Assembly: GCA_030429145.1 (NCBI GenBank)
Contig: JAUIDC010000001.1
Location: forward strand, 360,001-392,000
DNA from: Candidatus Saccharimonadota bacterium
GTDB lineage: Bacteria; Patescibacteriota; Gracilibacteria; Absconditabacterales; Absconditicoccaceae
Direction of reading: 5' to 3'
DNA: 32,000 nt
Numbering within the stretch: the stretch's first letter is position 1; each line of letters opens with the position of its first letter. Shown here one piece after another: positions 10,365 through 30,634 of the stretch. A program made the translations under genes and the position numbers. The notes beneath the pieces are model-generated. The model was given only the letters and a program-made list of their open reading frames with translations, had not been told where the DNA came from and did not search any database.

Positions 10365-13300
10365 TTACTGAGACCAAGTGAATGGGAAGTTACCAGTATT
10401 CTTGTATGATGCTGCGTCTGCTACAACTACATCACCATCATTAAGCTTATCAAGGTATCCAACTGAGCTAACAGTTGCACCCATTGGGTTAGCTGTTGTA
10501 CCATTCAATGTTGCGATTGGGTTAAGAACCTTAACAGAGAATGTTACAGTAGAACCGTTTGTGATTTCTACTACGCTATCAAGCTCAACTGAACCTGCAG
10601 CACCAGAGTAAACGAGGTCACCACCAAGACCATTCTTGTAGATATTGATGAGATTACCTGCGTTACCACCAGTTACGTTGATAAGGTCAACATTAGCACC
10701 AGTTACCTGAACTCTGTTACCCTTAGCAGTTACGTCAAATCTAGCGAACTCAGTAGTAGAAGGAGTGATATTAACCTTAGCTACAGATATTGCACCTCTA
10801 ACGATCTTAGTTGACTGAGAAACAGCAGTTGATGTTCCAGCTACTGTAGTCACAAGCTGACCGTTTGATTTAGAGATAGCTCTAATACCGTTCTTCACAC
10901 CTACAGCTGCATTAGTGATACCACCAGTTGCTACTGAGAATGTGAATCCAGTAGTCACATCAGAAGTACTAGTTACATTGCTGATATCAGCCTTAACTGA
11001 GTAAGTCTTAGTCTGTGACAATGGAAGTTCATTGTTAGACATGTTCTCGAATGCGATTACACCATTTCTGATTGTACCGAACCAAGAGTTTGTACCGTCT
11101 GTAAGCTGAACATTGTTGATCTTGTTAGCAAGTGTTGTACCAAGACCACCATTTGTTGCGAGATATAGATCAGTAATGTCTGTTGCATCTTTCTGTCCTT
11201 CGAGGTTGAACTGCGCAACTGTTACGTTTTGCTGACCACCGTAAAGGAGTTGAGACTGAAGTGATGAGTTAGCTGCAACTTCGAGAGTAGCAGAACCATC
11301 GATAGTAAGAGCACCACCAGCAACGTCAGATACTGAGATAGTATTAGATGTTACAGTGTCTACTGCGTCTACATCAGTAAGAGTAAGTCTGAGGGTACCA
11401 GTAGCACCAGCAGTGAAGTTACCTCTTACAGTCCAAGATACTGGGTTGTTCTTAGACACGTTGATGTTAAGACCGAAGAATGTTACCTTACCATTGTTGT
11501 AGTTAGCAGTCTTCACAGCGTTACCGTTTGCATCGTAGAGTGTTGCAGTAAGGTTGCTGTTAAATGCTGCTGCAGGAACGATACCAGTAGAAGTCGCACC
11601 AGAAAGTGTGAACTGGCTGATTCTAATTGGGTTATCCTGAGATGTTGAGAACGTAGCACCGAAGAGGAGCTGATTCTGAGCACCATTTACAATAGATTGG
11701 CTAGAGATACCATCGTTTCTTGTTACAGCGAGGTTAGAAGCTACGATAGAGATAGTAGCACCTTCAATAGAACCTACTGCAGCAGAAGTCTGGATAGTAT
11801 TCTGGTTGTTCTGATACTCTTTGATAGAGAAGTCAGAAAGTTGAAGAGGACCAAACTTGATGTTAGAAGTTCCAGCGTTAGACTTGATGTCTGCTGTCAA
11901 TTCTACCTCAGCAGTACCATTGATAGCTACAGCACCGTCAAATGAAGCATTTGAAAGACCTGTACCTGTGTCTGCTGACCAAGTAAATGTAGATCCACCA
12001 ATTCTCAACTTGTAAGAGTTAGCGATGTAGCTAGCTCCTGTAGAAGATGTGAATGGAAGAGTGAAGTCCTCAAGGTATACAGGAGTCTTAGAAGAGATAG
12101 TACCCTTCATAAGTACTGCATTGTTTACACCAGGAGAAACAGTGTTAGAGAGAGCAAATGATGAATCTCTCTTAAACATTACGTCTGCACCATTTACAGT
12201 GTAGAGTGGAAGGTAAGCTGTACCACTGATTGCAGCTCTGAACGAAGTAGTTTTTTCAACTACGTTAAGCTCAGAAGTGTTCTGCAGTCTGAACTGATAT
12301 GTATCACCGCTTGTGTTGTCAACGTATGTTACATTAGCTCTGATGTAGTAAGTAGCGTTCTGACCATCTTTGATCTCATCACCGGCACCAAGACCGAATG
12401 TGATCTCTTTACCATTCATTACAGTCACTGTAGAAACTTTTTGTCCGTTTCTGTAGAGAGCTACATCTGAAAGGTTGATAAGGTCACCGTTACCTTCGTT
12501 TCTCAAAGTAACAGACTTGAAGAGAAGATCTCTTTCATCTGTACCAGTAGAAACATCGCTAAGTCTGAACTGACCAAGCTCAAGATTGTCTGCATCACTA
12601 GCAGTTGCAGTAAGACCTGCACCAGCTCCTGTGAATGTTACAGTTGAAACAAGGTAGTTAGCTGTTCTAAGAGTAGGAGTTGAGATCATACCAACTACGT
12701 TAGCAGCAGAGCTGTTAATTTCAGTTGATGTGAACATGTGCTCTCCTCCAGGTGAACCAGCAGTCATGTCAACATACAGATCGATAGACTCAGTTGTACC
12801 TGCAGCGACTACTCGTGCTGGTGCAAAACTAAGAGTTACTGTTTGATCTGAGCTAACGCTAGCTCTAGAAGAGATTCTGATACCATCTTTCTCGAAGTAT
12901 ACTCTGTCGATGTCAGACGAGTTTCCAAGTCCGCTTCTCTTAAGAGTAACTGAGTTGATAGTAATGTTCTTAGAACCTGCTGTAAAGTCTACTGTAGCGA
13001 ACTTCACTGAACCTCTCTGAGGTACAGATGTAAGGTTTGCTGGAGACGCAGAGTTCATTGAGATATTGAGGTTACCTTCTTTTACTACAGGAGGATTAGT
13101 TGTTCCTGTACCGTTCCCTGGCTGGCAGAGAGAAGGATCAATATCACAAAGACCATTGTTGTCGATTGCCAATCTGTAGAGCATGAGCATCATGTCACCT
13201 CTAAGGATTGACTGACTAAGCATAGCGTACTTCATGATTCCCATAGAATTGAGAAGCTCGAAGTGAGCCTGCTCAGATGACATAGGATCGATTTCACCGA

Positions 13301-13715
13301 GCATTCTAGATACTACGATAGCAACCTGACCTCTAGTCACTTCTTGCTTAGGCATAAATTTACCTTCGTAACCCATCATAAGACCGAGCTCACAAGCAGC
13401 AGTAATACTAGCTGAAAGTGTGTAATCAGCATCAGCCATGTCTGTGAAAGAACAGTTTCCTGCAACTTCCTCAAGACCGAGAACTGACATACCAAATTCG
13501 CTAGCGAATTTAGCAAACTGTTCTCTTGTTAGGTTTGCGTAAGGCATAAAAGTGTCTGTACCGCTGTATTTAGTCAAACCAGCGTCATAACCCCAAGAGA
13601 TCGCGTCGATCATTTCAGGATCAGTAACTACAGGAGCTCCGTAAACGAGACCTCCAATAATCTGACTTGACACAACGGCAGCAGCAGCTGTTGTAGCAAT
13701 AAGCTTTTTCAACAT
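10365..13715 (-). CDS. SLH-domain cell-surface (S-layer-like) protein
   Basis: Track ORF trimmed to the ATG at 13715 (MLKKLIATTAAAAVVSSQIIGGLVYGAPV, a signal peptide). Three N-terminal SLH-like repeats follow (AISWGYDAGLTKYSGTDTFMPYANLTREQFAKF; FTDMADADYTLSASITAACELGLMMGYEGKFMPKQEVTRGQVAIVVSRML; a third, degenerate repeat). The remaining ~900 aa are T/S/N/G/A/V-rich and beta-repeat-like. 1116 codons with no TGA. Confidence 0.75.
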   Translation of the reverse strand: MLKKLIATTAAAAVVSSQIIGGLVYGAPVVTDPEMIDAISWGYDAGLTKYSGTDTFMPYANLTREQFAKFASEFGMSVLGLEEVAGNCSFTDMADADYTLSASITAACELGLMMGYEGKFMPKQEVTRGQVAIVVSRMLGEIDPMSSEQAHFELLNSMGIMKYAMLSQSILRGDMMLMLYRLAIDNNGLCDIDPSLCQPGNGTGTTNPPVVKEGNLNISMNSASPANLTSVPQRGSVKFATVDFTAGSKNITINSVTLKRSGLGNSSDIDRVYFEKDGIRISSRASVSSDQTVTLSFAPARVVAAGTTESIDLYVDMTAGSPGGEHMFTSTEINSSAANVVGMISTPTLRTANYLVSTVTFTGAGAGLTATASDADNLELGQFRLSDVSTGTDERDLLFKSVTLRNEGNGDLINLSDVALYRNGQKVSTVTVMNGKEITFGLGAGDEIKDGQNATYYIRANVTYVDNTSGDTYQFRLQNTSELNVVEKTTSFRAAISGTAYLPLYTVNGADVMFKRDSSFALSNTVSPGVNNAVLMKGTISSKTPVYLEDFTLPFTSSTGASYIANSYKLRIGGSTFTWSADTGTGLSNASFDGAVAINGTAEVELTADIKSNAGTSNIKFGPLQLSDFSIKEYQNNQNTIQTSAAVGSIEGATISIVASNLAVTRNDGISSQSIVNGAQNQLLFGATFSTSQDNPIRISQFTLSGATSTGIVPAAAFNSNLTATLYDANGNAVKTANYNNGKVTFFGLNINVSKNNPVSWTVRGNFTAGATGTLRLTLTDVDAVDTVTSNTISVSDVAGGALTIDGSATLEVAANSSLQSQLLYGGQQNVTVAQFNLEGQKDATDITDLYLATNGGLGTTLANKINNVQLTDGTNSWFGTIRNGVIAFENMSNNELPLSQTKTYSVKADISNVTSTSDVTTGFTFSVATGGITNAAVGVKNGIRAISKSNGQLVTTVAGTSTAVSQSTKIVRGAISVAKVNITPSTTEFARFDVTAKGNRVQVTGANVDLINVTGGNAGNLINIYKNGLGGDLVYSGAAGSVELDSVVEITNGSTVTFSVKVLNPIATLNGTTANPMGATVSSVGYLDKLNDGDVVVADAASYKNTGNFPFTWSQ

Positions 13716-14055
13716 GTGTCGTTGTAAAAAGGAAATAAATAGATGTGGATAAAACATCCGTATTAAAAACATCCCATTCCGTGTCTCCACACGGTTACAC
13801 TAGTAATACTAATCTCCCTTTGATATGCAAGCCAATTTTGACATAACATGACAGCCACATCAATAGCCTGAAACCCTAGGTCGACACTGATCGCTGTGTA
13901 ACACGTCAGTACCATGTAATACGATTGTGTTATCTCTTTGTGACAAAAAATCTTCACTTTTTTATATATAAAACGACCTGACAAAAACTGTCTACTCACC
14001 TACCCTATCACGCTGTCCATGTCTCAAAAAAATCTTAAAAATAAACTAAAAATAA

Positions 14056-14075
14056 AAAAGTTCTTTCGAACTTTT
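14056..14075 (-). terminator. rho-independent terminator downstream of tRNA-Arg/comEC
   Basis: 8-bp stem aaaagttc/gaactttt with a 4-nt loop. On the minus strand it is followed by ttttttattttt. Confidence 0.65.
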
Positions 14076-14135
14076 CTACTAAACTACATTAATATAATGT
14101 AATATTATCTTACGATTTTATGGACAGTTACTATT

Positions 14136-14206
14136 CAAGAGAACCAGGGATCGAACCTGGGCCTTCGGCTTCGGAGACCAACGTGCTACCATTACACCAT
14201 TCCCTT
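14136..14206 (-). tRNA. tRNA-Arg (anticodon CCG)
   Basis: Cloverleaf: acceptor aagggaa/ttctctt (A1-U72, one G-U pair), D arm gtgt-aatggta-gcac, anticodon stem ttggt/gccga with loop ctCCGaa, T arm ccagg-ttcgatc-cctgg, discriminator G. 71 nt, no encoded CCA. Confidence 0.8.
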
Positions 14207-15709
14207 ATCTTTACGAAATATTCTTAGAGCCACTATGATGACAATCATCACTCAGAGAAACACCATCCTTGCTCGCCACTCTTGAGTAGACAAAACAATA
14301 CCGTGTGCATTTGTTCGTTCACTGACATTATATATTCGAGAGACCAATCGTTGCTGAGGAATGACGATTCGTTTCCGAGAAGTTACACTATATACAACTG
14401 ATGCTAAAAATCCATAGATCATCACGAAGGGGACGACTGGCACAATCACAAGATTCGACATCGTCGACAGCAAATTGACACGTGATGTGAAAAACAAGAG
14501 AGGCACTATAATTCCAAGTGATGCTGCGATAGTTGGAAGAATATACACATTCCAAAATCCCCCTAAAAAAGAACGGACTGTTCTCTTTTTCTTTTGCTGT
14601 ACTCCTCGCTTTTTTGCGAAGTAGACAAGTCCAGCTAAAGCCGAAAAGCTAAAAAGAAATCATAGATCATATAAAAGGTAGTAAGGATTCCACAGAAGCA
14701 TCAATATGTACACGATAGACATACTACGCCAGACAGAGAGAATGCGTCAGGCAAAAAGCGCCGCCATACTAAGCAATGCCATAGACGCTGCACGAACAAC
14801 AGAACTATCCGCACCACATAGCAAAGCATAACCAAGGACAGCAATAGAAAGAATGAACAGCCTAATATAGTACGGCAGAAAAAATAAGAGAAAAGAGACA
14901 ATGAGGACAATATTTCCTCCGCTCACCGCTATGATGTGCACAAGCCCTGAGTCGACAAATCATTGATATTGTTCCTTGTCCAATCAGGAGCGATCTCCAA
15001 TCAGCATTCCTTTTGTCAGTCCTGCTACATCGGGAGAGAGCGCACTATCCACCAATGCCAAAACCCTATTGCGAAGCGATAAAACGAAGAGATCTCGACG
15101 ATCTCCCGACAGATAGACAGACATGTCGATGTTGTCATTGATCATGTCTACCCTACTGGAATATACTACTGAATGACTATCATAAAGCGTTCACGCCCAG
15201 CCTTTCATCAGGAGCCATTTGTCATAGTCAAAGCTTCGTTCATCCTCCCTTAAAGAGTTCAGCTTTTCTTTCCAAGCAAATCGATCCTGCTTCGAGTATT
15301 CGTGCAAATTAGTGGCTAGCGGTTGATAAAAGGCCGTCACATAGACGCTGTCCCCTGGCTCATAGTTCTTTGGGCTATAAAAAAGATATTCTCCTCCCTG
15401 AGAGAGCTCAAGAATATACCTTCCCCTACCGTGAGCCTCAACAACGAGACCCGAACCAATAAAACGAGATGAAAGAGGGCTCTGAGAGCTTGTATAACGA
15501 GCATGCTTATAGTTCACAGCACCTATAGATAAGAGAAACGCTAGTATTATAGCGAGAACGGCCTTTCTATATCGAGAAAAACACTTTCTCCTCCTCTTCC
15601 CCAAAATGAGAAGACACAGCAATGCTCCTAGACAACCATACACTGCCGGCCAGAGGGAACCAAAAAAAGTAATCAACGCCACACAGAGCGAAAAAGTCGC
15701 AATAAACAT
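14192..15709 (-). CDS. comEC: competence/DNA internalisation channel protein ComEC/Rec2 (no metallo-beta-lactamase domain)
   Basis: Track fragments 15191..15709, 14747..14941 and 14252..14548 share one frame and are joined only by TGA (6 in total). Motifs: GMLIGDRS-G-LDKEQYQ-G-FVDSGLVHIIAVSGGNIV...GADSSVVRAASMALL...YDL-G(TGA 14660..14662)-FLFSFSA. 505 aa. No HxHxDH motif is present. The first non-TGA stop is the TAA at 14192..14194, inside tRNA-Arg. Confidence 0.88.
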
Positions 15710-15803
15710 CTTTTGTTTTTATTTTACATATAAACCCTTCTAGGCTTGCACAACCATTTAACTCTTTTTAGGAATTCTTTACGCCCTCTTCTTGTTGTCT
15801 TTT

Positions 15804-16790
15804 TTATTCCTCTCTTTGGGGCAAGGATAATTTCGTTCGTCCGTACTCCTCCAAAAAAGTGGTAATTTTTTCCTGATAAACTATCGGACGAACATCGACA
15901 CCTAATAAATAGGAAATAAATAGGAAGTGTAGACGCGATCAGACAGAAGTTGACGATATCGACATCATTGTCAATGTCGTGTCAATATCGTTTTCTCGTC
16001 GTATATAAGCCATTATCTTGGGCGTGATAACCTTTAGTTGTCAGACAATGTCGACATCCTCTTGTCCACATGGAAAGAAGAGATATTGACAATGTCACCA
16101 CACATCGACAGACAGTCTAACTGCGTCTATATTTGTCTCGAGCTGTCAATATGGTGTCAAGTTTATCAAAACCTGTTTCTCGTTTTCTACAGGCTTTTTC
16201 TCTTGTTTTTGACGAATTTTCCATTTGTTGACAACGTCTGTCGAAAAGTCGTCAACCTTGACGAGTTTGACACTACTATTTCATAGGTAAGAAGCTACAA
16301 CTTCTCTCGATCTACTCTCTCTCACAAGCACTTGTTGACAGTTTTTGACTGTCAACTTGTACAAAATATCAAGCCATTTTGTCGTCGGTGTTCAAAATCA
16401 CCCCAAAAGCACAACATTTTTTCTAAGAAATGCTGGCCAAAAGAGGAGCAGGTAGTTTCGTCATCCATGGAATCGACCACGTGCTGCAGTGAAAACCTCT
16501 CCTCATCAGAGAAACTTTAACGCCTTAGGATTGCACAATCATTTGGTCAATATCTTCCAGTAGTTGTTCTTTTGGATCGTTTCTAGCTTGCAAATGTCGA
16601 CGTCTAGATAATGGCTATTTTGAGCCAACCAGTGGTCAAATCGACTCTTATCTCCTACCTCTATATAGAGCTTTTGGAGAGAAGGGTAGTTCGCAAAAAT
16701 CCAGTTGATGACGCCAAAGGCCAATATCTCGTCTCCAAAGTTTTTATATCCATAATAACACTTCAAAAAACCCTCTGTAGGCTTTTTCAT
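15804..16790 (-). CDS. csaB: polysaccharide pyruvyl transferase (CsaB-like)
   Basis: Track ORF 16539..16790 (MKKPTEGFLKCYYGYKNFGDEILAFG...) continues through 11 TGAs to the TAA at 15804..15806 (328 aa). Motifs: ...ALKFL-G-G-GEVFTAARGRFHG-G-RNYLLLFWPAFLRKNVVLLG-G-F-G-TPTTKW...VLVRESRSREV...VLINLTPY-G-Q... TGA TGA GGA at 16500..16508 encodes the family GGG motif. Every line was checked by hand for TAA/TAG. Confidence 0.85.
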
Positions 16791-16879: not shown

Positions 16880-19243
16880 TTACTCTTCTAAGTACCAGAT
16901 CTCTAGTCGTTTATGTCGCTGCTGTGCAGCGGTAGAGGATATAGCTCACAGGCCCTGCGCAACAAGATGGTCTACGACGACACCAGGGTCTGCAGTGAAC
17001 GCATATTGTTTTTTGAGATCTCACAATGTGAATGTTTGGCCATGTAGTACGATAGGGAGAGAGCTCTCATTTGACTCTAGAGCCTCAATGTTTTTCTCCA
17101 ACAGATTAGTAATATGTGCTATATCGGTATTCTGCCACACAAGGTATCGGTTACTTTTCAATTGTGACTGGAGGAGTTGCCCATAGTTTTTTCGTATTTT
17201 TATTTCCAAAGCACTTTCTGCTAGTTTGTTTTTAGAGGAAGATCTAAGAGCTTTTAGCTGTTCATAGTATTTTCTTCGTTTCATTTCGAGCGATTCTTTT
17301 GTCTTGGAGTACCTTGCCTGCAGTCAGGTGTATTGACGTTGCTTATTTTCATATTTCTCTTGGAGAGAAGCCAATTTCTTGTCATATTTTGCCTTCATAT
17401 CAGCATCGAGAACCGACTTGAAAGATAAACAATTGAATAATGCATCACCAAACAGGGCACACGCCTGCGTTCCTGAAAGAGTCAGCGAGAGATCCCTCAT
17501 TCGTCATAACGCCTCTCAGCTCGAAACATATTCAGAAATATCTCCAGTTAATCCTATCCGTACCCCTGCTTTTGGTTGCCCATAGCAGAAGGTATCTATG
17601 AGTTTATTTTCTTGTTGTAGCGAGACACAGGCTGGTTTATTGACCAGATTGAAAGTCCCTTTTAGCGTTACCTCATCTCCTGGAAAGAGGATAGAGCCCT
17701 GCAGTGCCGTTTTCTTGTTGTTACTAACTAATTTGAGCATCGAGAGGTCTGCCTGCTCTCATGAAAGGAGGGCGATGGTGATTTGTTCATTCCCTTCGTC
17801 TTTGCCTTCTGCATCTGGGAGAACTCTTTTTATTTGCAATACTGAGCGTAGAAGATCTGGCAAATCAGCAAAGTTTTCGCTACCTGAAACCAATTCAACT
17901 TGAGAAGAGGTAGATTTATTGTACGCCTGGCCCGCTTGGTTTACTCATATACCAAAGGCAGCTAATTGATCTTTTAATTCATAGTAGCGATCTTTCCACT
18001 TACGATAGAGGTCCTCATAGTATGAGCTCTTTCCCTCTGGCTTCTCTACCGCAGCGCCTGGCAAGGAGATTCGCTGAAAGATAGTATCTGAGAAGCCTGG
18101 AGAAGGATAATCAGCACGCAAGGATCATGTCCCATCTCTATATCGAGAACGAGAAGTTTCATTTCCGGTATAGATAATTTCATCAAGCATATTTCCAGTA
18201 AGATCATACAAGGCCAGATACTCTCATCCATCAGTGAGAGATAGAAATTCAATTGGTATGTAATGAGCAATAGATGCGTGTCCAGAGAATGGGTCTCCTA
18301 CAACCCGAAGCTGTCAGGTGAGGGCAAAGACAAACAAACTTTTGCTAGCAGGTCCATTTCCAGCACCGACAATAGTGAGCTGTCAACTGTATACACTCTC
18401 AAAAAGAAGCTCTATGTACTCTGGTAGCGCATCGTTTCCTGGGTGAATTTCTGTGATAGAGATCTTAGGTAGTAGTTCTGTCTCCACAAGCTCACCACTA
18501 GTAGAGAGCGGACTGGGCAAAGAGTAGTCTGTTTCTCACGAAAGAGAGGACTCTCAGGAAAGCAAGTTGCCTGAACTAACAGATGGAAGAGCAAAGACGA
18601 ACCCTGGATTAGCAACCCATGAGCCACTAACATTGGCTATCCTCGCTCCTGTAGTAGCCACCCGAACAAGCTCACTTCACGACCATACTCTCTCAAATCA
18701 GTAATTATTGGGGAGAGAGGCAACCATCTCTGCAGAGAAGCTGATAGAATCAAGCAAAACCCCCGAACTGAAAAGCTCCACCTGTATTGCACTGGAGTCA
18801 GACATACTGAATCCAAGCCCTGTGGCACCAATGATTGTTCTATCCACGACCTGTTGCATTTGGTCTCCCCGTACTGATACAGCTCAAGAGGGCAAAGAGA
18901 GCTCTCATAGTGACAAATCTGCCGACTTCACTCCTTTCAGCAGAACTGGGCCTGTAAATACTCACGACCCCACATTTGCTATCTCAATCCGCTCGTCCGT
19001 GCCGTCAAAAAAGAGTTCGGAGATGACAAGACGAGGCTGAGACAGAATGAGCTCGTCCGTGATGTTTTCGTCACTCATTGACACTCATGCTTGTCCAGTT
19101 TCTGTCAAAGATTGTCAGGAGGCTGCCACCTCGCCAGAGGTCGAAAGAGTCGACAAGTCGTCAAGCTCTGTCAACGCAAAAAAGGGTAGTAAAAGAAGCG
19201 TTATAGGCACTACTAGTAGCCATAATAGAGATTTTTTCGTCAT
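16880..19243 (-). CDS. secreted protein with three lamin-tail-domain (LTD)-like modules and a C-terminal coiled coil
   Basis: ATG at 19243 and TAA at 16880..16882, 787 aa, 20 in-frame TGAs and no TAA/TAG (each 60-nt line checked). The frame agrees with track fragments 17516..17740 and 17021..17284. Signal/TM segment: MTKKSLLWLLVVPITLLLLPFFA. LTD-like modules begin RLVISELFFDGTDERIEIANVGSG (aa ~71-185), PKISITEIHPGNDALPEYIELLFES (aa ~259-375) and VLQIKRVLPDAEGKDEGNEQITIALLSG (aa ~468-565). A K/E/Q-rich coiled coil spans aa ~615-725. Confidence 0.8.
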
Positions 19244-19385
19244 GGTTTTTTGTTTTTATTTTTATGAAAATGTGACATATTTGTCGTGGACAGAGATAGT
19301 GAACTGAACACTCGAGGCAAGACATTGTGTCAAAGTCCGTCAAAAATTCTCATCAGAGAAGATTATTTCTTTTCGAGGCTAAAAT

Positions 19386-19414
19386 TTGACAGATTTTTCA
19401 TTTTTCGGTATAAT
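19386..19414 (+). promoter_or_regulatory. consensus sigma70-type promoter (TTGACA-17 nt-TATAAT)
   Basis: TTGACA at 19386..19391, a 17-nt spacer, then TATAAT at 19409..19414. It lies 35 nt upstream of the ATG at 19449. Confidence 0.7.
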
Positions 19415-19448
19415 TAATAAGAATGATTTTATGTTATGTTCTGTAACC

Positions 19449-21761
19449 ATGGCAGATCAACAAAACCCAATACAAAAAGACGATCAAACAAATCCCGCTA
19501 CTCAAGGGAACCCAACCAATGACGACAACACTCCTATCAACGACTGATTGGGGGATATTTCATTGGATGGAGATGCTACTAGCGATTCTTCCGCAACTCA
19601 GGAAGATGATACGTCTGTGGCTCCTGCAGCCGAAAATGCTGATAGCGAGGCTCAGCCAGAGACGCCAGCTGAAACAAAGACAGACATCTCAGATCTAGGC
19701 GATGTTCTGCTCGACCAGTCTGCAGACGATGCTCAGACACAAGACGAGACAAGCAATGTAGCGGCCCAGGATGACACTGAGAATTCAGCGTCTATGGAGA
19801 ACAACTCTGAAGATGTCTCACCAGCAGCACAACCTGAAACAGGAAGTGAACCTGAGGAGCCAAAGCCTGCTAACAGTCAAGAAGATCCGACAAAGATTGA
19901 TCTCGGAGATATCTCTTTGCCTTCCAATGATGAGAATGCACCACAGGGAGATAACAAGAGTAGCTCTCCTGAAAATGATAGACCAACTGGTATGTTTCAC
20001 TCTCCCGATGAGGAAACTCCAGCTCCATCTGCAGAGACGCAATCTGAAAATCAGATAGAAGGAAGCACTAATGAGACAGAAGGAGCCAAAGGAGAGCAGC
20101 CGGTGAGCGCAAATGCTGAAGCTATGCCTGAAATTTCACTTGATACTGTTCCGGCTGCACCTGAGCCAGCGCCAGAAGCAAACGCAGACGCAAATACAGA
20201 AGTTGCCAATGATCTTCCTCCTGTAGACCAACCAACAGAAACAGATAAGACTGAGACTGAGGGACATCTTTTCAAACAGCCTGATGATGAGACCCAACCT
20301 ACTGAGGAGGCTCCAACTCCTAGCGAGGAACCATCAGAGATGACTCAGCAGCCAGAAGCTCCTGTCATGACTGAAGAAAATGAGCCAAAAATCACCGATG
20401 AAAGCGAAGAGTTTCCTACTGAAATACTCAATCAAGAAGTAAGGGAGGAGGATCCTCAAGCAGAAACAGAAGAGACAGAGGGAATGCATGAGGAAGTAAA
20501 AGACGATAACAAGAATGCTAATATGGAAAACCAAGAAGCATCAGCGGAAGAAGCAGTTGAAAAAGATGCTACTCTTGAAGCCAGCGAAAATAATACAGAT
20601 GGAAACGAGGCCACAGAAGCCACACCTGAAATTAAAACCGAAGAAAACAAAGAAGAAAGCAACAATGTCATGATCAATCTCGAAGACGAAGAAAGTAAAG
20701 AGGAGACAGAAAACGAAGAACTTCCTACTCCTGAAGCAACAGCAGAGACTCCAAGTAGCGATGAATCAGACCCTTTAGTCGACGACCTTCTTAATAATGA
20801 GTGAACAAAAGTTGCCGAGAATAATACAGAGGAACAGCCAGAGACAGTATCTGAAACGCCAACTAATGATGAATCAGATCTTACGTTTGACTTAGATGCG
20901 CTTACTGGAGATCTCGAGTGAGGAAGCTCTGGCAACAGCGCAATTGCGGAGGCAAACAAAGAAGAAACGACAAACGGAGACGAAGAAAATCAGGAAGCTG
21001 TAGCGACGGCCGAGCAGCCAGAAGAAAAGCAAGAACAGTCAGAACAAGAAGCAATAGCTCCTACAAATGTGGCTGAAGAACCAGCTTCTCAAACAAACAA
21101 TCCACAACCAGCTACTACGTCTGTCCCGCTACCAAACGCGACCGTAGTACAATCAAAGCCAAAAAAGGGATCGCCTAAAAAGAAGGCTATCGCTATGGCT
21201 GCAGCATTTGTCATGCTTCTCGTTGTCGGAGGATTTGTTTTTACTACCATGATGCCCGAAGAGTCTGATAGCCTCATGGCTAACATATTGGGCTCGTCTG
21301 ACAATGACTCTAGCCTTACTCCTGAAGTTCCTGTACAGCAAACAACTATTCCAACTGACAATACATCTACATCAACACCGACAAACAACATAGACAACAC
21401 TCAGCCCCAGACACCTGAAACGACCAACACCACTACTGAAACTCCTGTAAACAATATTGAACAGCCAACAACACCAACGGTTACTATAACAATGGATCAG
21501 GCAAAGAATGCACTAGGACTCATCGCTCACAACAGCAAGAGAAGCCTAGCCGACGCTCTAAGAGCAGAGAATCAGGAAATATCAGAAAGACTATATAGCA
21601 TCTTTAAAGAAAGTTCAGCTCTCTTGGAAACCCTTGCAAACACAAGTGACATCTCTACGATAGCAACAATAGAACAGCAAATTGCAGATTTGCAGGGCGA
21701 TTTACTTGACGCTATAAATACTTTGGATGCCGAAACCAGCAACAACGCTCAGTCTCAGTAG
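19449..21761 (+). CDS. very acidic low-complexity membrane protein (N-terminal D/E/T/P/Q-rich region, one TM helix, C-terminal helical domain)
   Basis: The ATG at 19449 is in frame with track ORFs 19548..20804 and 21069..21761, joined by TGAs at 19545, 20802 and 20919. 770 aa with a TAG stop. A basic patch KPKKGSPKKKA precedes the TM helix IAMAAAFVMLLVVGGFVFTTMM. The motif D-I/L-S/G-L-D recurs (GDISLDGD, DISDLGDVLL, IDLGDISLP, EISLDTVP, LTFDLDALTGDLE). Confidence 0.7.
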
Positions 21762-21762
21762 T

Positions 21763-22632
21763 ATGATAAAAAAATTTCAAACGTATCTCGAATACGAAAA
21801 AAACGTTAGTCCAAAAACGTACGAGAACTACACGCTCCGACTGGGGCGTTTTTTGCAACATACAGGCGATGTCAATGTGAAAGAGATCACCTCTCTTGAT
21901 GTTCTCGACTTTAGACAACAGCTTACTAAAAGAAAACTCAGTAAAAAAACTATAAACTATCATATCGTTGCCATCAGAGCGTTTCTCAAATTCTGCCTCA
22001 AACACGATATCGACGTTATCTCTCCGGACAAACTCGAGCTTGGAAAGACCCCACCAAGGGTAGTAAGTTTTCTTGACGAGTCAGAGGTGGAACTCATATT
22101 GTCTATGCCTGCACAATGGGAGACAAAGAACGACCTCAAAAGACTCAGAGACGAGGCGATACTCCTTGTTCTTTACGGGACAGGCCTACGTGTCAGCGAG
22201 CTTATTTCTCTCCAAAGATCTGACATTAAGTTCAATAGCAATCAGTTCCGAGTAGTCGGAAAGGGACAAAAAATGAGATCGGTCTTCTTCACTAAGCGCG
22301 CCAGAGAAAAACTTGAAGAGTATCTCGGTGCTAGAAGTGATGAAAGCCCACACCTTTTTATCAACCTCAGCAACTATAAGTGAGGAAAGTGACTCACAAG
22401 GAATGCAGTGGAGGACATCGTAAGAGAGTATGCACGTAAAGCTGGGATCGACAAAAAAGTAACACCACATACCCTGCGTCATACCTTTGCGACATCTCTT
22501 CTCAAAAAAGGCGCTGATATCAGGTCGGTACAAACCCTTTTGGGACACTCGTCTATTACGACCACTCAAATATATACCCATGTGGACGACAAATTTCTCC
22601 AACAGGTACATAAACTCATGGACGACGAATAA
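21763..22632 (+). CDS. tyrosine recombinase XerC/XerD family
   Basis: ATG at 21763. Track ORFs 21727..22383 and 22408..22632 share one frame and are joined by two TGAs (NYK-G-GK-G-LTRNAV). Motifs: [53 protein letters not shown] (R...HxxR...Y). 289 aa. Confidence 0.88.
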
Positions 22633-23142: not shown

Positions 23143-23847
23143 TTAGGTATGTCTTCCTATGACTGAGCCCCATATAGTTAGCTTAGGGAAGCTCTTTTTC
23201 AGACATTTGGCTGCTTCCTGTATAGTTGATCCTGTAGTAGTGACATCATCGATAAAAATAATCAGCTCATTTCACATAAGAGTTATTCATTTTCTCAGTG
23301 AAAAGACTCCTTCGAGATTTTTTAACCTCTGCTTACGGGAGAGAAATGCTTGGATACGAGTGTGTCTTTTTTTAGTCACTAACGGTTGATAGGGAATATT
23401 GAGATTGGATGCAACTGCTTGAGCCAAAAGCTCGGATTGATTGTATCCTTTCGTGAAGTATTGTCTGTATCGGTGAGAAGGGATAGAGGAGATAATAGTC
23501 TTTTTTGTATGAGATAATTTTTGCAATGTGCGATTCGTTTGTATAACCAGTGCTAAGCGATCCGCGAGGAAAGATGCCACGTCGTAACGATGATAGTATT
23601 TGAGCTGTAAGATAAGTTTCTTGAGAAGATCGCTGTAAGCAAATCAGATAGCAATACCCTGATAGGCTGCCTCTCTTTGATAGTCTATGTGTACTTGGAA
23701 ATCTGGTGAGAAACGATGAGAGACTGGGCAGATTTCGGGGTGGGGCTGAAGACGCTTTCTACACTGATGACAGAGATAAGAGTCTTCGCTTTCGCAGCCT
23801 ATGCAGACTACGGGAAAAATATATGTAAGAATAGTTTTATATCGTTT
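23143..23847 (-). CDS. comFC: ComF family protein (ComFC, phosphoribosyltransferase-like); start codon unresolved
   Basis: Track ORF 23287..23580 extends in both directions. The N-terminal zinc-finger region reads IFPVVCIGCESEDSYLCHQCRKRL. Then come ...SIPSHRYRQYFTKGYNQSELLA...RIQAFLSRKQRLKNLEGVF and the PRT motif LIIFIDDVTTTGSTI, ending at the TAA at 23143..23145. 3 in-frame TGAs. The upper boundary given is the first codon after tRNA-Val. There is no in-frame ATG/GTG/TTG upstream of the CxxC motif. Confidence 0.75.
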
Positions 23848-23848
23848 A

Positions 23849-23925
23849 TGGTAGGCGGTATTGGACTTGAACCAACGACCTCCACAATGTCAATGTGGCG
23901 CTCTCGCCAGCTGAGCTAACCGCCC
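23849..23925 (-). tRNA. tRNA-Val (anticodon GAC)
   Basis: Cloverleaf: acceptor gggcggt/accgcct (G1-U72 wobble), D arm gctc-agctggcga-gagc, anticodon stem ccaca/tgtgg with loop ttGACat, T arm gttgg-ttcaagt-ccaat. ACCA is encoded. 77 nt. Confidence 0.85.
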
Positions 23926-25129: not shown

Positions 25130-26674
25130 CTATCTTTGTTCTACAAACATGTTCTTGCTTCTATACTGCAAAGCCTCTGCAACGTGCTCCAGCAGCACGT
25201 TTTCTTTTTGTTCGACATCTGCTATGGTGCGAGCGAGCTTGAGAGAGCGATGCACGAGGCGAGTGGAAAGGGATAGTCTTTGCGCAGCCTGCTTCATGAA
25301 TGCTTCTGTCTTCTCATCGAGCTGTACATAGCGAGAGAGCGTCTTCGCTGAAAGCGATGCATTTGATGCAATGGTTGTTTCTCTATACCTGCTTTGTTGT
25401 CTCTCCCAAGCAGCACGGACCTCCTCGCGAAAGGAGATTGAACTCCTTTGCTCTGCTTTCTCGAAGATAGTCTCTATGCTCTCACGAGGAATCTCCAAAA
25501 CTATATCGATCCTATCGAGAAGCGGGCCAGATATCTTTGACTGGTAACGAGCAATCTCTGCCAAGGAACACGAGCAGGGCTTTTCACGATCTTTGTAGTA
25601 GCCACACCTACATGGATTCATCGCAGCAACAAACATGCACTCTGCCGGATATTTTACTGATCAGGCTGCACGCGAGATAGTTATCTGCTTTTCCTCCAAC
25701 GGCTGACGAAGCACCTCTAGACTCTCGCGAGGAAACTCAGTCAGCTCATCGAAAAAGAGCACTCACTTGTGCGCGAGGCTGATCTCGCCCGGGTGCAGAT
25801 GAGGACCTCATCAGGTGATAGCTATCTTGCTAGCCGTGTGATGCACGGCGCGAAACGGGCGAGTGCTGATCAAAGGTTCATCTTTGGTCAATCTCCCGAC
25901 GAGCGAATAGATCTGGGAAACTTCTATCATCTCGTCAAAGCTGAGCGGAGGGAGGATCGAGGCGAGCGCTTGCGCGAGAAGCGTCTTTCCTGATCAGGGT
26001 GGTCACACCATAAGCATGTTATGTCATCCAGCAGCAGCAAGACAAAGTGCACGTTTTGCGACAAGATGTCCCCTTATCGAAGAAAGGTCCACAGAGGCCT
26101 CTTTCTCTTTCGCCTTTATTCTAATGTGCGAGGCAGAACAAGAGTTCAACATCTTCCCCTTCACAAAAAAATCTACAATATCACGAAATGTCGCAAGCGG
26201 AAAAACCTTTATTCCATTTACATACTGCAGTTCAAATACATTCTCTTCAGGAACAAAAAATGTCGTGTACCCGAGCTTTCTAGAAGCAAGCACCGCTGGC
26301 AAAAGTCATTGCACTCTCCTCACCGAACCATCCAATCCAAGCTCTCCAAAGAAAAGAGACGAGGACAGCATGTCTACATGACAAATGTGTCAGCAAAAAA
26401 GAAACAATACAGCAACAGCCATAGGAAGATCAAACTGAGTGCCTGTCTTTTTGATGTCCGATGGGGCGAGATTAAGCACAATCTTCTGTGGCGGGATAGA
26501 GATATCTAAATTGCGAAAAGTGGAACGCAAACGTTCTTTCGCCTCCTTAACAGCCATATCTGGTAGTCCGATAATCTCTATAGTCGGCAATGCTTTATTT
26601 GCATCAGCTTCTATCGTTACTTCATGCCCATCAAGTCAAAAGAGCGCAAAGGTTTTTACTAGGCTGTGTGTCAT
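25130..26674 (-). CDS. comM: Mg-chelatase-like ATPase ComM/YifB
   Basis: ATG at 26674. Track fragments 26390..26590, 26024..26302 and 25130..25636 share one frame and are joined by about 10 TGAs. Walker A reads NMLMV-G(TGA 26003..26005)-PP-G(TGA 25994..25996)-SGKT. Further motifs: [20 protein letters not shown] and Walker [18 protein letters not shown]. 514 aa. The TAG at 25130..25132 is 1 nt from the murG stop (convergent genes). Confidence 0.92.
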
Positions 26675-29131: not shown

Positions 29132-29506
29132 CTAGAAAAGATTGAGAGCAAGTCTCACAAGGATATATGAAAACATTGCGATAGCTATGCCCACCATAGC
29201 ACCAACCATGGTATTTGTTGCTTTTTTCATTTGTGGCTCGTCTCCACGAGCTGTGAGCAACTTGATACCTCACACGATAAGCACAGCCATACAGATCACA
29301 CCAATAGCTATCCAAAGATACTCATTGATAATCTGGATAAGGGAGACAACATCTCCCGAATTACTTGTCACTTCCGACTGTCCGTTTGTAGCTCTTTGGA
29401 TGTCCTGGTAGCCTTGCGCATCTGGCAAAGTAACGTGCAAATTGGTCGCAGCTGCTACACCATATGCAAAGAGAGAACTAACTGTGGTCAATAAAAACTT
29501 TTTCAT
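29132..29506 (-). CDS. VirB2/TrbC-like (CPR-type type IV secretion) pilin, paralog B
   Basis: ATG at 29506 (MKKFLLTTVSSLFAYGVAAA, a signal peptide). It reads through the TGA at 29270..29272 to the TAG at 29132..29134 (124 aa). The C-terminus is a helix-charged loop-helix: WIAIGVICMAVLIV-G-GIKLLTARGDEPQMKKATNTMVGAMVGIAIAMFSYILV. Confidence 0.55.
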
Positions 29507-29513
29507 CTGTCTA

Positions 29514-29999
29514 TTATAAGCTAATTGAAGATCTCGTAATGGATTGGATAAGATTGACGATGGCAAGAGCAGAAAGCGCTATGATAATTCCGACTACTAT
29601 CTTTACAAGATTATCGATAGCCTTCTTTTCTTTTGCCGCATCTCCTTGTGAAAGAGCGTACTGGATACCAACAAATATCCCCATACTTACTCCGATGATG
29701 GCCATCATTCTGAGGAGCCATTTCATAATTCTCACGAGGAGCGGATCTTGTTGTTGCAGAACAGGACCACCTCACACATTTACTGATGTTCCACCACGGA
29801 CAAGGTCATTTCCAACAGCGTTCTTATTGTTTCCTATATCCACCACCGTGTCATATTGCTTTGATTGTTGATAGCTTTGCTCCAATAGATCAAGACCATA
29901 CGCCGATCAGCCAGCGATAATTATGCCTCCAACAACAAAAAGAAACCCAATGATCTTGGATCGTATGCCATGAACCAGCGACCTCGGATTTCTTTGCAT
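29514..29999 (-). CDS. VirB2/TrbC-like (CPR-type type IV secretion) pilin, paralog A
   Basis: ATG at 29999, 2 in-frame TGAs, in frame with track ORF 29514..29735, TAA stop, 161 aa. N-terminal hydrophobic segment IIGFLFVVGGIIIAG. The C-terminus MAIIGVSMGIFVGIQYALSQGDAAKEKKAIDNLVKIVVGIIIALSALAIVNLI aligns with paralog B. Confidence 0.55.
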
Positions 30000-30448: not shown

Positions 30449-30634
30449 TGATTTTTTCATAAAGCTATCTAAATCCTTCTCTGCTTTTGCCGAAGATATT
30501 TCACTCTCCTTGTCAGATATTTCCTTGATAGTAGGTATCTTTTCGTATGATTGCAACGCTTTCTTTTTCATCTCTCTTATCTTTTTAGAAGAGACGTGCT
30601 GGCGCTGTGTTCATGATATATATACCTCATTCAT
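30449..30634 (-). CDS. small hypothetical K/E-rich protein
   Basis: The ATG at 30634..30632 overlaps the pilT TAA by 1 nt (TAATG). 61 aa with one TGA. Its TAA lies 3 nt before the next gene's ATG. Supported only by this tight coupling. Confidence 0.35.

What the first reader, a model, noticed from the sequence alone, without database searches (positions are those of the whole stretch)
16880..19243. Hidden 787-aa secreted triple lamin-tail-domain protein next to comEC: candidate surface DNA-binding or processing factor
The gene is invisible in the standard-code track. It is chopped into more than 20 pieces, and three longer spurious ORFs lie in another frame.

Under table 25 it is one uninterrupted frame with these parts:
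- A signal/anchor peptide.
- Three modules whose starts (LVISELFFDGTDERIEIAN; ISITEIHPGNDALPEYIELL; VLQIKRVLPDAEGKDEGNEQITI) fit the LTD pattern (hydrophobic-x-I-x-E-hydrophobic..., then acidic residues, then E-hydrophobic-I/V-E-L).
- A long coiled coil.

Established knowledge: in bacteria, LTD domains typically accompany membrane-associated metallo-beta-lactamase, phosphoesterase or nuclease-type hydrolases.

Inference: the comEC two genes away lacks its usual metallo-beta-lactamase domain. A stand-alone multi-LTD protein could therefore supply the extracellular DNA-capture function for uptake in an organism that probably scavenges nucleotides. This architecture (three LTD modules plus a coiled coil with no catalytic domain) looks undescribed.
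Basis: partly seen in the sequence, partly recalled or inferred. Interest (0 to 1): 0.75.

Follow-up and report, generated by a model that had tools for sequence, protein, structure and literature searches.

The report
Surface multi-LTD protein linked to ComEC
A real gene hidden by an altered genetic code encodes an exported protein with three lamin-tail-like domains; across its bacterial lineage it sits in a fixed three-gene cluster with the DNA-uptake channel ComEC, and some orthologues carry a nuclease domain, so it is probably an outer accessory of DNA uptake, but this is not proven.

Summary
Window 16880-19243 (minus strand) is one 787-codon frame with 20 in-frame TGA, and TGA=Gly is shown directly. 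The protein has a signal-like N-terminus, three lamin-tail-type beta-sandwich modules, an 85-residue basic helix and a conserved C-terminal domain.

It belongs to a family restricted to code-25 Absconditabacteria/Gracilibacteria: 233 clusters at E<=1e-10, and 38 of 38 genome hits in that clade. In every locus with enough downstream DNA the gene order is multi-LTD, CsaB-like pyruvyl transferase, then ComEC without an MBL domain.

- About 16% of listed family members carry an intact staphylococcal-nuclease domain at the same locus. The window protein is the nuclease-less minimal form.
- LTD modules 1 and 2 are acidic, so they are unlikely to bind DNA directly. The basic helix is the better candidate.
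- Table 25 is still incomplete. CGA/CGG very probably encode Trp here, affecting 13 codons of this gene. A Trp-type tRNA(CCG) lies next to comEC.

Verdict: a new variant of a known kind (surface LTD/nuclease eDNA-processing proteins). A ComEC-accessory role is plausible (about 0.5) but untested.

The parts
16880..19243 (-). Whole gene: 787 codons plus TAA. It contains 20 TGA (Gly) and 13 CGA/CGG (probably Trp).
19166..19243 (-). aa 1-26: Sec-type signal peptide or N-terminal membrane anchor (MTKK followed by a hydrophobic stretch). There is no Cys, so it is not a lipoprotein.
   Evidence: This is the only KD>1.6 segment in the protein. 93 of 109 family N-termini are similar.
19034..19165 (-). 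aa 27-70: acidic, Ser/Thr-rich linker (net charge -8).
18590..19033 (-). aa 71-218: module 1, a divergent A-type LTD. With CGG=Trp its opening motif reads ISELFFDGTDEWIEIAN.
   Evidence: An AlphaFold model of the homologous domain P0124 1-158 has pLDDT 92.5, and its top Foldseek matches are lamin B1 and lamin A/C tails. 16 of 41 such domains hit Pfam LTD. The window protein itself scores E=3.9e-6 after the CGR=Trp correction.
18089..18469 (-). aa 259-385: module 2, an A-type LTD (ITEIHPGNDALPEYIELL ... YPSPGF).
   Evidence: hhalign of module 1 against module 2 gives probability 97.2%, E=4.7e-11. AlphaFold predicts an all-beta domain with pLDDT >90.
17843..18088 (-). aa 386-467: a low-confidence middle region with one helix (aa 408-428). 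In the long forms, the extra LTD modules and the SNase domain are inserted at this position.
17564..17842 (-). aa 468-560: module 3, a canonical B-type LTD (IKRVLPDAEGKDEGNEQITI ... C..L....D.FCY).
   Evidence: phmmer gives 30.3 bits against P0006 813-925, which is itself a Pfam LTD at 44.3 bits, above the 34.3-bit cut-off. hhalign gives probability 99.5%, E=1.1e-22. On its own the module scores Pfam E=0.031.
17426..17563 (-). aa 561-606: small three-stranded beta unit with a conserved Cys pair.
17156..17425 (-). aa 607-696: long basic helix (AlphaFold helix at aa 614-698). Net charge is +13, or +11 with CGR=Trp. It is specific to the minimal forms with one canonical LTD.
16880..17155 (-). aa 697-787 plus the stop codon: C-terminal alpha/beta domain, conserved across the family.
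15804..16790 (-). CsaB-like polysaccharide pyruvyl transferase (PF04230), 89 nt downstream of the multi-LTD gene. Middle member of the conserved three-gene cluster.
14192..15709 (-). ComEC, 505 aa. It has PF03772 plus a weak DUF4131 match and no MBL domain. Third member of the cluster.
14135..14207 (-). tRNA with anticodon CCG carrying Trp-type identity elements (G73, U20, A1:U72). It bears on how this gene must be translated.
   Evidence: identity criteria from PMC8629427

Best explanation
The gene encodes a Sec-exported protein retained at the cell envelope. It consists of three lamin-tail-type Ig-like modules, an 85-residue basic helix about 13 nm long, and a conserved C-terminal domain. 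It is the nuclease-less minimal member of a family specific to code-25 CPR bacteria.

The family gene is kept in a three-gene cluster, probably an operon, with a CsaB-like pyruvyl transferase and a ComEC channel that lacks its own MBL nuclease domain. The most likely role is as the outer, wall- or S-layer-level accessory of the ComEC DNA-uptake apparatus.

In the long orthologues, an intact Ca2+-type staphylococcal nuclease embedded in the LTD array would cut or process incoming DNA. In the window protein that activity is absent. The acidic LTD array would then act as a rigid spacer or scaffold. Any DNA contact, or contact with anionic pyruvylated wall polymer, would come from the basic helix and C-terminal tail.

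Shown: gene reality, genetic code, fold type, family limits, synteny, nuclease in orthologues, charge distribution.
Inferred: surface retention, co-transcription, and any physical or functional coupling to ComEC or to DNA.
For: Linkage with comEC:
- The window and 12 independent loci (L001, L002, L004, L005, L007, L009, L014, L017, L020, L024, L025, L030) have comEC one or two genes downstream.
- 9 further loci show csaB before the sequence ends.
- No locus with enough downstream DNA lacks these genes. The loci span GC 22-47% and the family proteins are about 20-28% identical.

Nuclease in orthologues:
- SNase is present in about 25 of the 160 listed members, and sits at the same locus in L005, L014, L025 and L030.
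- The SNase aligns with S. aureus nuclease at E=2e-14, with D21, R35, D40, E43 and R87 conserved.

Other support:
- ComEC here and in relatives has only PF03772 and no MBL domain.
- ComF, ComM and a T2SSE ATPase are in the same window. RecA follows the cluster in L002.
- LTD fold and sequence evidence.
- No terminator-like site lies between the three genes, and the gaps are 89 and 94 nt.
- Described analogues: the LTD + thermonuclease surface protein Hvo_1477 is needed for growth on eDNA (PMC3929857), and an LTD + nuclease protein occurs in Izemoplasma DNA-degradation loci (PMC8289736).
Against: - The window protein has no nuclease and no recognised DNA-binding domain.
- Its LTD modules are acidic, and the mature protein has net charge -24 to -37.
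- The middle gene (csaB), the downstream SLH S-layer gene, and the murG gene upstream in several loci point equally to an envelope-building context.
- Synteny may partly reflect shared ancestry.
- The protein diverges fast (44% aa identity against 74-80% nt identity for neighbours). That is typical of exposed surface proteins or adhesins.
- No expression or interaction data exist.
- Foldseek E-values are weak (4e-3 to 3e-2), although lamins rank first.
Confidence: 0.5

Rival explanations
1. It is an envelope or S-layer-associated structural protein, or a host-attachment adhesin. Its Ig-like LTD repeats project from the wall, and its basic C-terminal tail binds the pyruvylated wall polymer made by the adjacent CsaB. 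The adjacency to comEC is incidental or only regulatory.
For: - csaB always lies directly next to it, and an SLH S-layer gene follows comEC.
- murG lies upstream in L001, L003, L004 and L005.
- The LTD modules are acidic and the tail is basic.
- The protein diverges rapidly.
- Large surface proteins are proposed host-attachment factors in Vampirococcus (PMC8080830).
Against: - It does not explain why a catalytically intact nuclease is repeatedly embedded in orthologues at the same locus.
- It does not explain why comEC, rather than the S-layer gene, is the invariant partner. In L001 csaB is absent but comEC remains, and in L002 recA follows where the S-layer gene would be.
- The protein has no SLH or known wall-binding domain.
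Confidence: 0.3
2. This is the reader's version: the three LTD modules themselves are the extracellular DNA-capture surface. They substitute for a DNA receptor and feed ComEC for nucleotide scavenging.
For: - The synteny and nuclease-orthologue evidence is the same as above.
- LTDs recur in eDNA-processing proteins.
- From my own knowledge, the eukaryotic lamin Ig-fold is reported to bind DNA. This was not tested here.
Against: - Modules 1 and 2 carry net charge -6 and -8 (or -9 and -10 with the corrected code). Family medians are -9 and -6.
- The cited literature proposes a membrane or surface association role for bacterial LTDs, not DNA binding.
- ComEC-dependent nucleotide scavenging was not supported in Saccharibacteria.
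Confidence: 0.12
3. It is a decaying remnant of a surface nuclease gene that lost its catalytic domain and has no remaining function.
For: The SNase and extra LTDs present in relatives are absent, and the middle region (aa 386-467) has low model confidence.
Against: - The 787-codon frame is intact.
- The same minimal 2A+1B layout recurs in dozens of 50%-identity clusters.
- That layout has its own innovation, an extended basic helix (51 such members, median tail 216 aa against 164).
- A full-length orthologue is conserved in L007.
Confidence: 0.05

Closest known systems
SNase-bearing orthologues of the same family (e.g. P0006, named by NCBI 'thermonuclease family protein [Candidatus Absconditabacterales bacterium]')
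   Same: They share the N-terminal A-type modules, the canonical LTD modules, the Cys-containing unit and the C-terminal domain. They occupy the same position upstream of csaB and comEC.
   Different: They carry 3-4 extra LTD modules and an intact staphylococcal-nuclease domain, and they lack the long basic helix. The window protein has neither the extra modules nor the nuclease.
Haloferax volcanii Hvo_1477 (LTD + thermonuclease surface lipoprotein involved in eDNA metabolism; PMC3929857, PMC5118699)
   Same: It is a surface-attached protein that combines a lamin-tail domain with an SNase-type nuclease, as the long family members do. Its deletion reduces growth on extracellular DNA.
   Different: It is archaeal, 327 aa, with a single LTD and a lipobox anchor, and is not linked to ComEC. 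The window protein has three LTDs, no nuclease and no lipobox.
Ca. [quoted passage not shown]
   Same: It is a large secreted LTD-containing protein encoded beside DNA-processing and uptake functions in a reduced-genome bacterium.
   Different: Its nuclease and neighbours differ (ABC nucleoside transporters rather than ComEC). No sequence relationship was tested here.
Gram-positive competence accessories: ComEA (DNA receptor), NucA/EndA (surface nucleases) and the MBL nuclease domain of ComEC (from my own knowledge; NucA and EndA are also cited in PMC3929857)
   Same: The proposed role is the same: extracellular DNA handling upstream of the ComEC channel. The family's SNase forms would be functional analogues of NucA/EndA, and the ComEC here lacks an MBL domain.
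   Different: There is no homology. The window protein has no helix-hairpin-helix, no beta-beta-alpha-Me nuclease and no MBL domain.
Eukaryotic lamin tail Ig-fold (PDB 1IFR, 7CRG, 3JT0, 3UMN, 2KPW)
   Same: These are the best structural matches to the predicted modules: probability 0.93-1.00, TM 0.46-0.64 normalised to the lamin domain, RMSD 3.5-5 A for most matches (6.9 A for 7crg_B against module 1).
   Different: Sequence identity is only 12-14% and Foldseek E-values are weak. The proteins have an unrelated context, with no intermediate-filament rod.

Membership tests
Lamin tail domain (Pfam PF00932) | Sequence match to the Pfam model at or above the curated cut-off (34.3 bits) | tested here: not met
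   The table-25 translation gives no hit even at E<=10. With CGA/CGG=Trp the score is 27.6 bits, E=3.9e-6. Module 3 alone scores 15.1 bits. The homologous module in P0006 does pass at 44.3 bits.
Lamin tail domain (Pfam PF00932) | Homology to bona fide LTD modules by profile comparison | tested here: met
   Met for module 3 only. hhalign gives probability 99.5%, E=1.1e-22 against Pfam-positive modules, and phmmer gives 30.3 bits. For modules 1 and 2 the result is inconclusive: hhalign against module 3 is not significant, but 16 of 41 module-1-type domains hit PF00932 (best E=1.2e-4), and modules 1 and 2 are related to each other at 97.2%.
Lamin tail domain (Pfam PF00932) | Ig-like beta-sandwich fold closest to the lamin tail | tested here: met
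   In the AlphaFold models, modules 2 and 3 have pLDDT >90 and the module-1-type domain has pLDDT 92.5. The top single-domain Foldseek PDB hits are lamin A/C and lamin B1 tails, with probability up to 1.00 and TM 0.46-0.64. Caveats: E-values are only 4e-3 to 5e-2. Module 1 was modelled on a homologue (P0124), not on the window sequence. The input sequences carried Trp at TGA positions and Arg at CGR positions.
Staphylococcal nuclease / thermonuclease (PF00565) | Presence of an SNase domain with the catalytic Asp/Arg/Glu residues | tested here: not met
   Pfam finds no SNase in the window protein, and the family-specific SNase HMM finds none in P0001. SNase is present and intact in orthologues.
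Surface LTD-nuclease eDNA-processing proteins (Hvo_1477-like) | LTD plus nuclease on a surface-anchored polypeptide; lipobox anchor in Hvo_1477 | tested here: not met
   The LTDs and an export signal are present, but the window protein has no nuclease and no N-terminal Cys or lipobox. The long orthologues meet the LTD + nuclease criterion.
ComEA-type DNA receptor | Helix-hairpin-helix DNA-binding domain | tested here: not met
   Pfam and NCBIfam give no HhH or ComEA match at E<=10.
Competence (ComEC) gene cluster | Conserved genomic linkage to comEC across divergent genomes | tested here: met
   The window and 12 loci have comEC downstream, and 9 more have csaB before the sequence ends. There are no counter-examples.
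Competence (ComEC) gene cluster | Functional requirement for DNA uptake or transformation | not testable with these tools
   This needs genetics or biochemistry in a cultivated relative, or heterologous assays.
SLH-anchored S-layer proteins | SLH domain | tested here: not met
   The target has no SLH domain. The SLH domain is in the separate gene at 10365-13772.
Coiled-coil protein | Oligomeric coiled coil | tested here: inconclusive
   AlphaFold predicts one continuous 85-residue helix in the monomer model. A crude heptad score is moderately raised over aa 603-700. Oligomerisation was not modelled.

The most novel reading that the evidence does not exclude
The cluster of multi-LTD(+/-SNase), CsaB and ComEC is a previously unrecognised DNA-uptake module of code-25 CPR bacteria. 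In it, a wall-spanning LTD protein replaces the ComEA, NucA/EndA and ComEC-MBL functions of classical competence systems. In the long forms, an embedded SNase generates the substrate. In the minimal forms, such as this one, a 13-nm basic helix has replaced 3-4 LTD repeats and the nuclease, and serves as the DNA- or wall-contacting stalk.
Probability: 0.3. Interest if true: 0.7.

Novelty: new variant of a known kind. Interest (0 to 1): 0.55.

Why it matters
ComEC is nearly universal in CPR/Patescibacteria, and it is the handle that first made one of these organisms genetically tractable. How DNA is captured and made single-stranded outside a ComEC that lacks its nuclease domain is unknown.

A lineage-wide accessory gene tightly linked to comEC, and carrying a nuclease in some orthologues, gives a concrete and testable candidate for that step. 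It also suggests a link between DNA uptake and pyruvylated wall polymer or S-layer architecture.

Practically, the case shows that genes in this clade are mistranslated twice over. The deposited copy reads TGA as Trp and is N-terminally truncated. Even table 25 misreads 13 CGA/CGG codons. That mistranslation is enough to hide the LTD signature from Pfam.

Tried and rejected
Searches that led nowhere:
- Pfam and NCBIfam on the table-25 translation gave no LTD match, only weak coiled-coil noise (Com_YlbF, GrpE, HcsL).
- Profile searches of PDB sequences with the module-1 and module-3 alignments found nothing meaningful. The best hit was the CBM21 domain of glucoamylase at E=0.02, judged to be chance.
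- hhalign of modules 1 and 2 against module 3 and the Pfam-positive LTDs was not significant, so I relied on structure and per-member Pfam hits.

Tool refusals and work-arounds:
I used an alignment headed by P0001 instead.
I replaced it with a hand-written degenerate DNA motif that allows Gly to be GGN or TGA.
- The first AlphaFold input was too large.
- The look-up of encoding contigs and the listing of cluster members gave no record name for P0001, so the source organism is identified only by its relatives.

Hypotheses considered and rejected:
- TGA=Trp (code 4). Rejected on the Walker A and TrmD motifs and the orthologue alignment.
- A hidden or degenerate SNase in aa 386-467. The family SNase HMM gives no hit, and the model shows only one helix plus disorder there.
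- The long basic helix and SNase as strict alternatives. The helix actually tracks the number of canonical LTD modules, not SNase presence as such.
- A spurious ORF or pseudogene. Rejected because the frame is conserved.
Full report
**1. The observation**

The reverse complement of window 16880-19243 is a 2364-nt frame from ATG to TAA. It has 20 in-frame TGA codons and no other stop. Under the standard code it falls into 21 pieces.

TGA is Gly, not Trp. In the window's ComM the Walker A motif reads MVxPPxSGKT, and in TrmD the conserved motif reads YGGxAGM, with x = TGA. Within the target gene itself, 11 of 20 TGA codons align to Gly in a correctly translated orthologue, 5 align to Ala and none to Trp. 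The background Gly frequency is 8.6%.

The deposited copy of this protein (P0001, NCBI) is translated with TGA=Trp and starts only at Met129.

**2. Anatomy**

There is a single hydrophobic segment at aa 4-24, following MTKK. 93 of 109 family members with a complete N-terminus have a comparable one. That fits a Sec signal or N-terminal anchor. There is no Cys, so it is not a lipoprotein.

A family alignment and an AlphaFold model of aa 129-787 (mean pLDDT 76, domain cores >90) define these parts:
- an acidic Ser/Thr-rich linker, aa 27-70
- module 1, aa 71-218
- module 2, aa 259-385
- a poorly ordered middle region with one helix
- module 3, aa 468-560
- a small three-stranded unit containing Cys
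- one continuous 85-residue helix, aa 614-698
- an alpha/beta C-terminal domain

**3. Are the modules LTDs?**

Pfam finds nothing on the table-25 translation.

Module 3 is nevertheless a clear LTD:
- It aligns end to end (30 bits) with P0006 813-925, which passes Pfam's LTD cut-off (44.3 against 34.3 bits).
- Profile-profile comparison with 13 such modules gives probability 99.5%, E=1e-22.

Modules 1 and 2 are homologous to each other (97.2%, E=5e-11). Profile comparison alone does not link them to module 3. Other evidence does:
- 16 of 41 module-1-type domains individually hit PF00932 (best E=1.2e-4), and no other family recurs.
- An isolated module-1-type domain (P0124 1-158, 77 bits to the window's module 1) models at pLDDT 92.5, pTM 0.86.
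- Lamin B1 and lamin A/C tails are its top PDB matches.
- Lamin tails are likewise the top single-domain matches for the multi-domain model.

Foldseek E-values are modest (4e-3 to 5e-2). I therefore call modules 1 and 2 divergent LTD-type domains, not certified Pfam members.

**4. The family**

A word-based search found only two hits to the window protein. Iterating through the distant hit P0002 opened a family. An exhaustive profile search found 360 representatives at E<=1e-3, 233 at E<=1e-10 and 137 at E<=1e-30.

All listed members have the high-Trp, low-Gly signature of TGA-recoded genes translated with code 4. A family-specific DNA motif hit 38 genome loci. All are SR1/Absconditabacterales, 'Peribacteria' or unnamed Patescibacteria MAGs.

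The architecture is modular:
- 1-3 A-type modules (like window modules 1 and 2)
- 0-6 canonical LTDs
- the conserved C-terminal domain
- an SNase domain in about 25 of the 160 listed members

That SNase aligns with S. aureus nuclease at E=2e-14, with D21, R35, D40, E43 and R87 conserved. So the window protein is the nuclease-less minimal form (2 A-type + 1 canonical LTD). This form is itself common.

**5. Synteny**

In the window the gene order on the minus strand is:
- the multi-LTD gene
- a CsaB-like pyruvyl transferase (PF04230)
- ComEC (PF03772 with a weak DUF4131 match, 505 aa, no MBL domain)
- tRNA(CCG)
- an SLH S-layer gene

The gaps between the first three genes are 89 and 94 nt, with no terminator-like site between them.

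| Downstream of the multi-LTD gene | Loci |
|---|---|
| csaB then comEC | L002, L004, L005, L007, L009, L014, L017, L020, L024, L025, L030 |
| comEC directly | L001 |
| csaB, then the sequence ends | 9 further loci |
| Enough downstream DNA but neither gene | none |

The loci span GC 22-47%. Both SNase+ (L005, L014, L025, L030) and SNase- genes occupy this position, so they are orthologous variants and not paralogues with different contexts.

**6. What argues about mechanism**

The recurrent nuclease, the MBL-less ComEC, and the neighbouring comF, comM and T2SSE ATPase genes point to DNA handling.

However, the LTD modules are acidic and the helix is strongly basic:

| Part | Net charge in window protein | Family median |
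|---|---|---|
| Module 1 | -6 | -9 |
| Module 2 | -8 | -6 |
| Module 3 | -1 | -2 |
| Long helix | +13 (pI 10) | not computed |

The length of the tail after the last LTD also varies with architecture:

| Form | n | Median tail length | Median peak charge (70-aa window) |
|---|---|---|---|
| SNase+ | 23 | 164 aa | +8 |
| SNase-, two or more canonical LTDs | 44 | about 163 aa | +5 to +10 |
| SNase-, one canonical LTD (like the window) | 51 | 216 aa | +14 |

The long basic helix therefore appears where the extra LTD repeats are missing. A helix of about 13 nm is roughly the length of 3-4 Ig-like modules. This suggests, as an inference, a spacer that preserves reach across the wall or S-layer zone.

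The invariant csaB neighbour raises the alternative that the basic tail binds anionic pyruvylated wall polymer.

The orthologue in the syntenic genome L007 is only 43.6% identical, whereas neighbouring genes are 74-80% identical at the DNA level. This is the behaviour expected of an exposed surface protein.

**7. Comparison with what is known**

LTD combined with nuclease on surface proteins involved in eDNA use is already described:
- Hvo_1477 in Haloferax is an LTD + thermonuclease lipoprotein, and its deletion impairs growth on DNA (PMC3929857, PMC5118699).
- A 1,049-aa protein with nucleic-acid-binding, nuclease and LTD domains sits in Izemoplasma DNA-degradation loci (PMC8289736).

Papers on Absconditabacteria mention ComEC, ComEA, pili, SLH proteins and giant surface proteins, but not this family or its linkage (PMC8080830, bioRxiv 2024.03.08.584096).

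In Saccharibacteria, ComEC mediates transformation and is dispensable for growth (PMC10633639). That weakens the nucleotide-scavenging premise.

I therefore class the finding as a new variant of a known kind. It is a clade-specific multi-LTD(+/-SNase) family locked to csaB and comEC, with a nuclease-less, helix-extended minimal form.

**8. A correction that matters for anyone using the sequence**

CGA and CGG are very probably Trp codons here. The evidence:
- Between the window gene and its L007 orthologue, five of six TGG positions align to CGA/CGG, and three window CGA codons align to TGG.
- A codon-aware column test was run over family, comEC and csaB genes from 45 sources. Results are in the table below.
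- In the window alone the ratio of Trp-type to Arg/Lys-type columns is 6:3 for CGR codons, against 0:20 for true Arg codons (Fisher p=1.8e-4).
- Housekeeping genes in the window contain no CGA/CGG at all.
- The tRNA with anticodon CCG next to comEC has G73, U20 and A1:U72. These are the Trp-acceptor criteria used by Shulgina & Eddy, who predicted CGA/CGG=Trp in Absconditabacteria (PMC8629427).
- Re-translating the target with CGR=Trp turns module 1's motif into FDGTDEWIEIAN. Pfam LTD then goes from no hit to E=3.9e-6, 27.6 bits.

| Codon(s) | In Trp-dominated columns | In Arg/Lys-dominated columns |
|---|---|---|
| CGA | 55 | 6 |
| CGG | 36 | 4 |
| TGG | 83 | 2 |
| AGA/AGG/CGT/CGC | 0 | 359 |

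Two of the window gene's CGG codons (aa 125 and 562) sit in Lys-rich columns, so ambiguity for CGG remains.

With this correction, net charges become: helix +11, module 1 -9, module 2 -10.

**9. Verdict**

- The architecture and synteny are right.
- 'No catalytic relatives', 'LTDs capture DNA' and 'table 25' each need revision.

My best explanation is a surface scaffold or accessory of the ComEC uptake apparatus, at about 0.5. The main rival is an envelope or adhesion protein tied to CsaB and the S-layer, at about 0.3.

Noticed in passing
window 14135-14207 (-), and all CGA/CGG codons in the window (e.g. target aa 85, 125, 194, 313, 367, 391, 562, 581, 656, 684, 699, 776, 779): There is evidence for a second codon reassignment, CGA/CGG = Trp. 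The 'tRNA-Arg(CCG)' has Trp-type identity elements (G73, U20, A1:U72). CGR codons sit in Trp or aromatic columns, as TGG does and true Arg codons never do. Housekeeping genes avoid CGR entirely. This matches the Codetta prediction for Absconditabacteria (PMC8629427). Two CGG codons in the target lie in Lys-rich columns, so CGG may be ambiguous.
   Followed up: yes
window-wide; e.g. 10365-13772 (S-layer gene), 1669-2850 (EF-Tu), 15804-16790 (csaB): The use of TGA as a Gly codon varies strongly between genes. It is 0 of 107 Gly codons in the S-layer gene and 0 in EF-Tu, ribosomal proteins, PilT and KsgA. It is 30% in the target, 37% in comM and 48% in csaB. This suggests TGA-Gly is avoided in highly expressed genes.
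   Followed up: partly
P0001 (the deposited copy of window 16880-18859): The public protein record for this gene is translated with TGA=Trp and begins at Met129. It therefore lacks the signal peptide and the first half of module 1. Most database relatives are likewise code-4 translations (high Trp, low Gly).
   Followed up: yes
window 19379-21805, both strands: The divergently transcribed neighbour (19431-21761, +) encodes a 776-aa, extremely acidic, Thr/Pro/Glu/Asp-rich low-complexity protein with one C-terminal-proximal TM segment and no Pfam match. The antisense strand is also free of TAA/TAG for about 808 codons, presumably because of the strong purine skew. A perfect TTGACA-17-TATAAT promoter-like site lies at 19386-19414.
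   Followed up: no
window 29132-29999 (-) and 30634-31716 (-): Two small proteins match the T4SS pilin family (PF18895) and lie next to a T2SSE/PilT-like ATPase. ComF-like (about 23143-23850) and ComM (25130-26674) genes lie in between. The window is therefore rich in DNA-transfer and DNA-uptake functions beyond the three-gene cluster.
   Followed up: partly
L007 (JAGOPC010000001.1) compared with window 12060-16766: The multi-LTD orthologue is only 43.6% identical in protein sequence. The adjacent S-layer and csaB genes are 80% and 74% identical at the DNA level. The target therefore evolves much faster than its operon partners.
   Followed up: partly
family-wide (P0012-P0015 and others; L002, L004, L006): Many short-form relatives carry an extra Cys-rich beta domain, sometimes duplicated, between module 2 and module 3. 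The window protein lacks it. Its nature was not examined.
   Followed up: no
L005 7070-7933 and 16167-19808; L002 5460-6500: The genes flanking the three-gene cluster vary between loci: a Bro-N domain gene upstream and a 1213-aa gene downstream in L005, recA downstream in L002, and murG upstream in four loci. Only the cluster itself is constant.
   Followed up: partly
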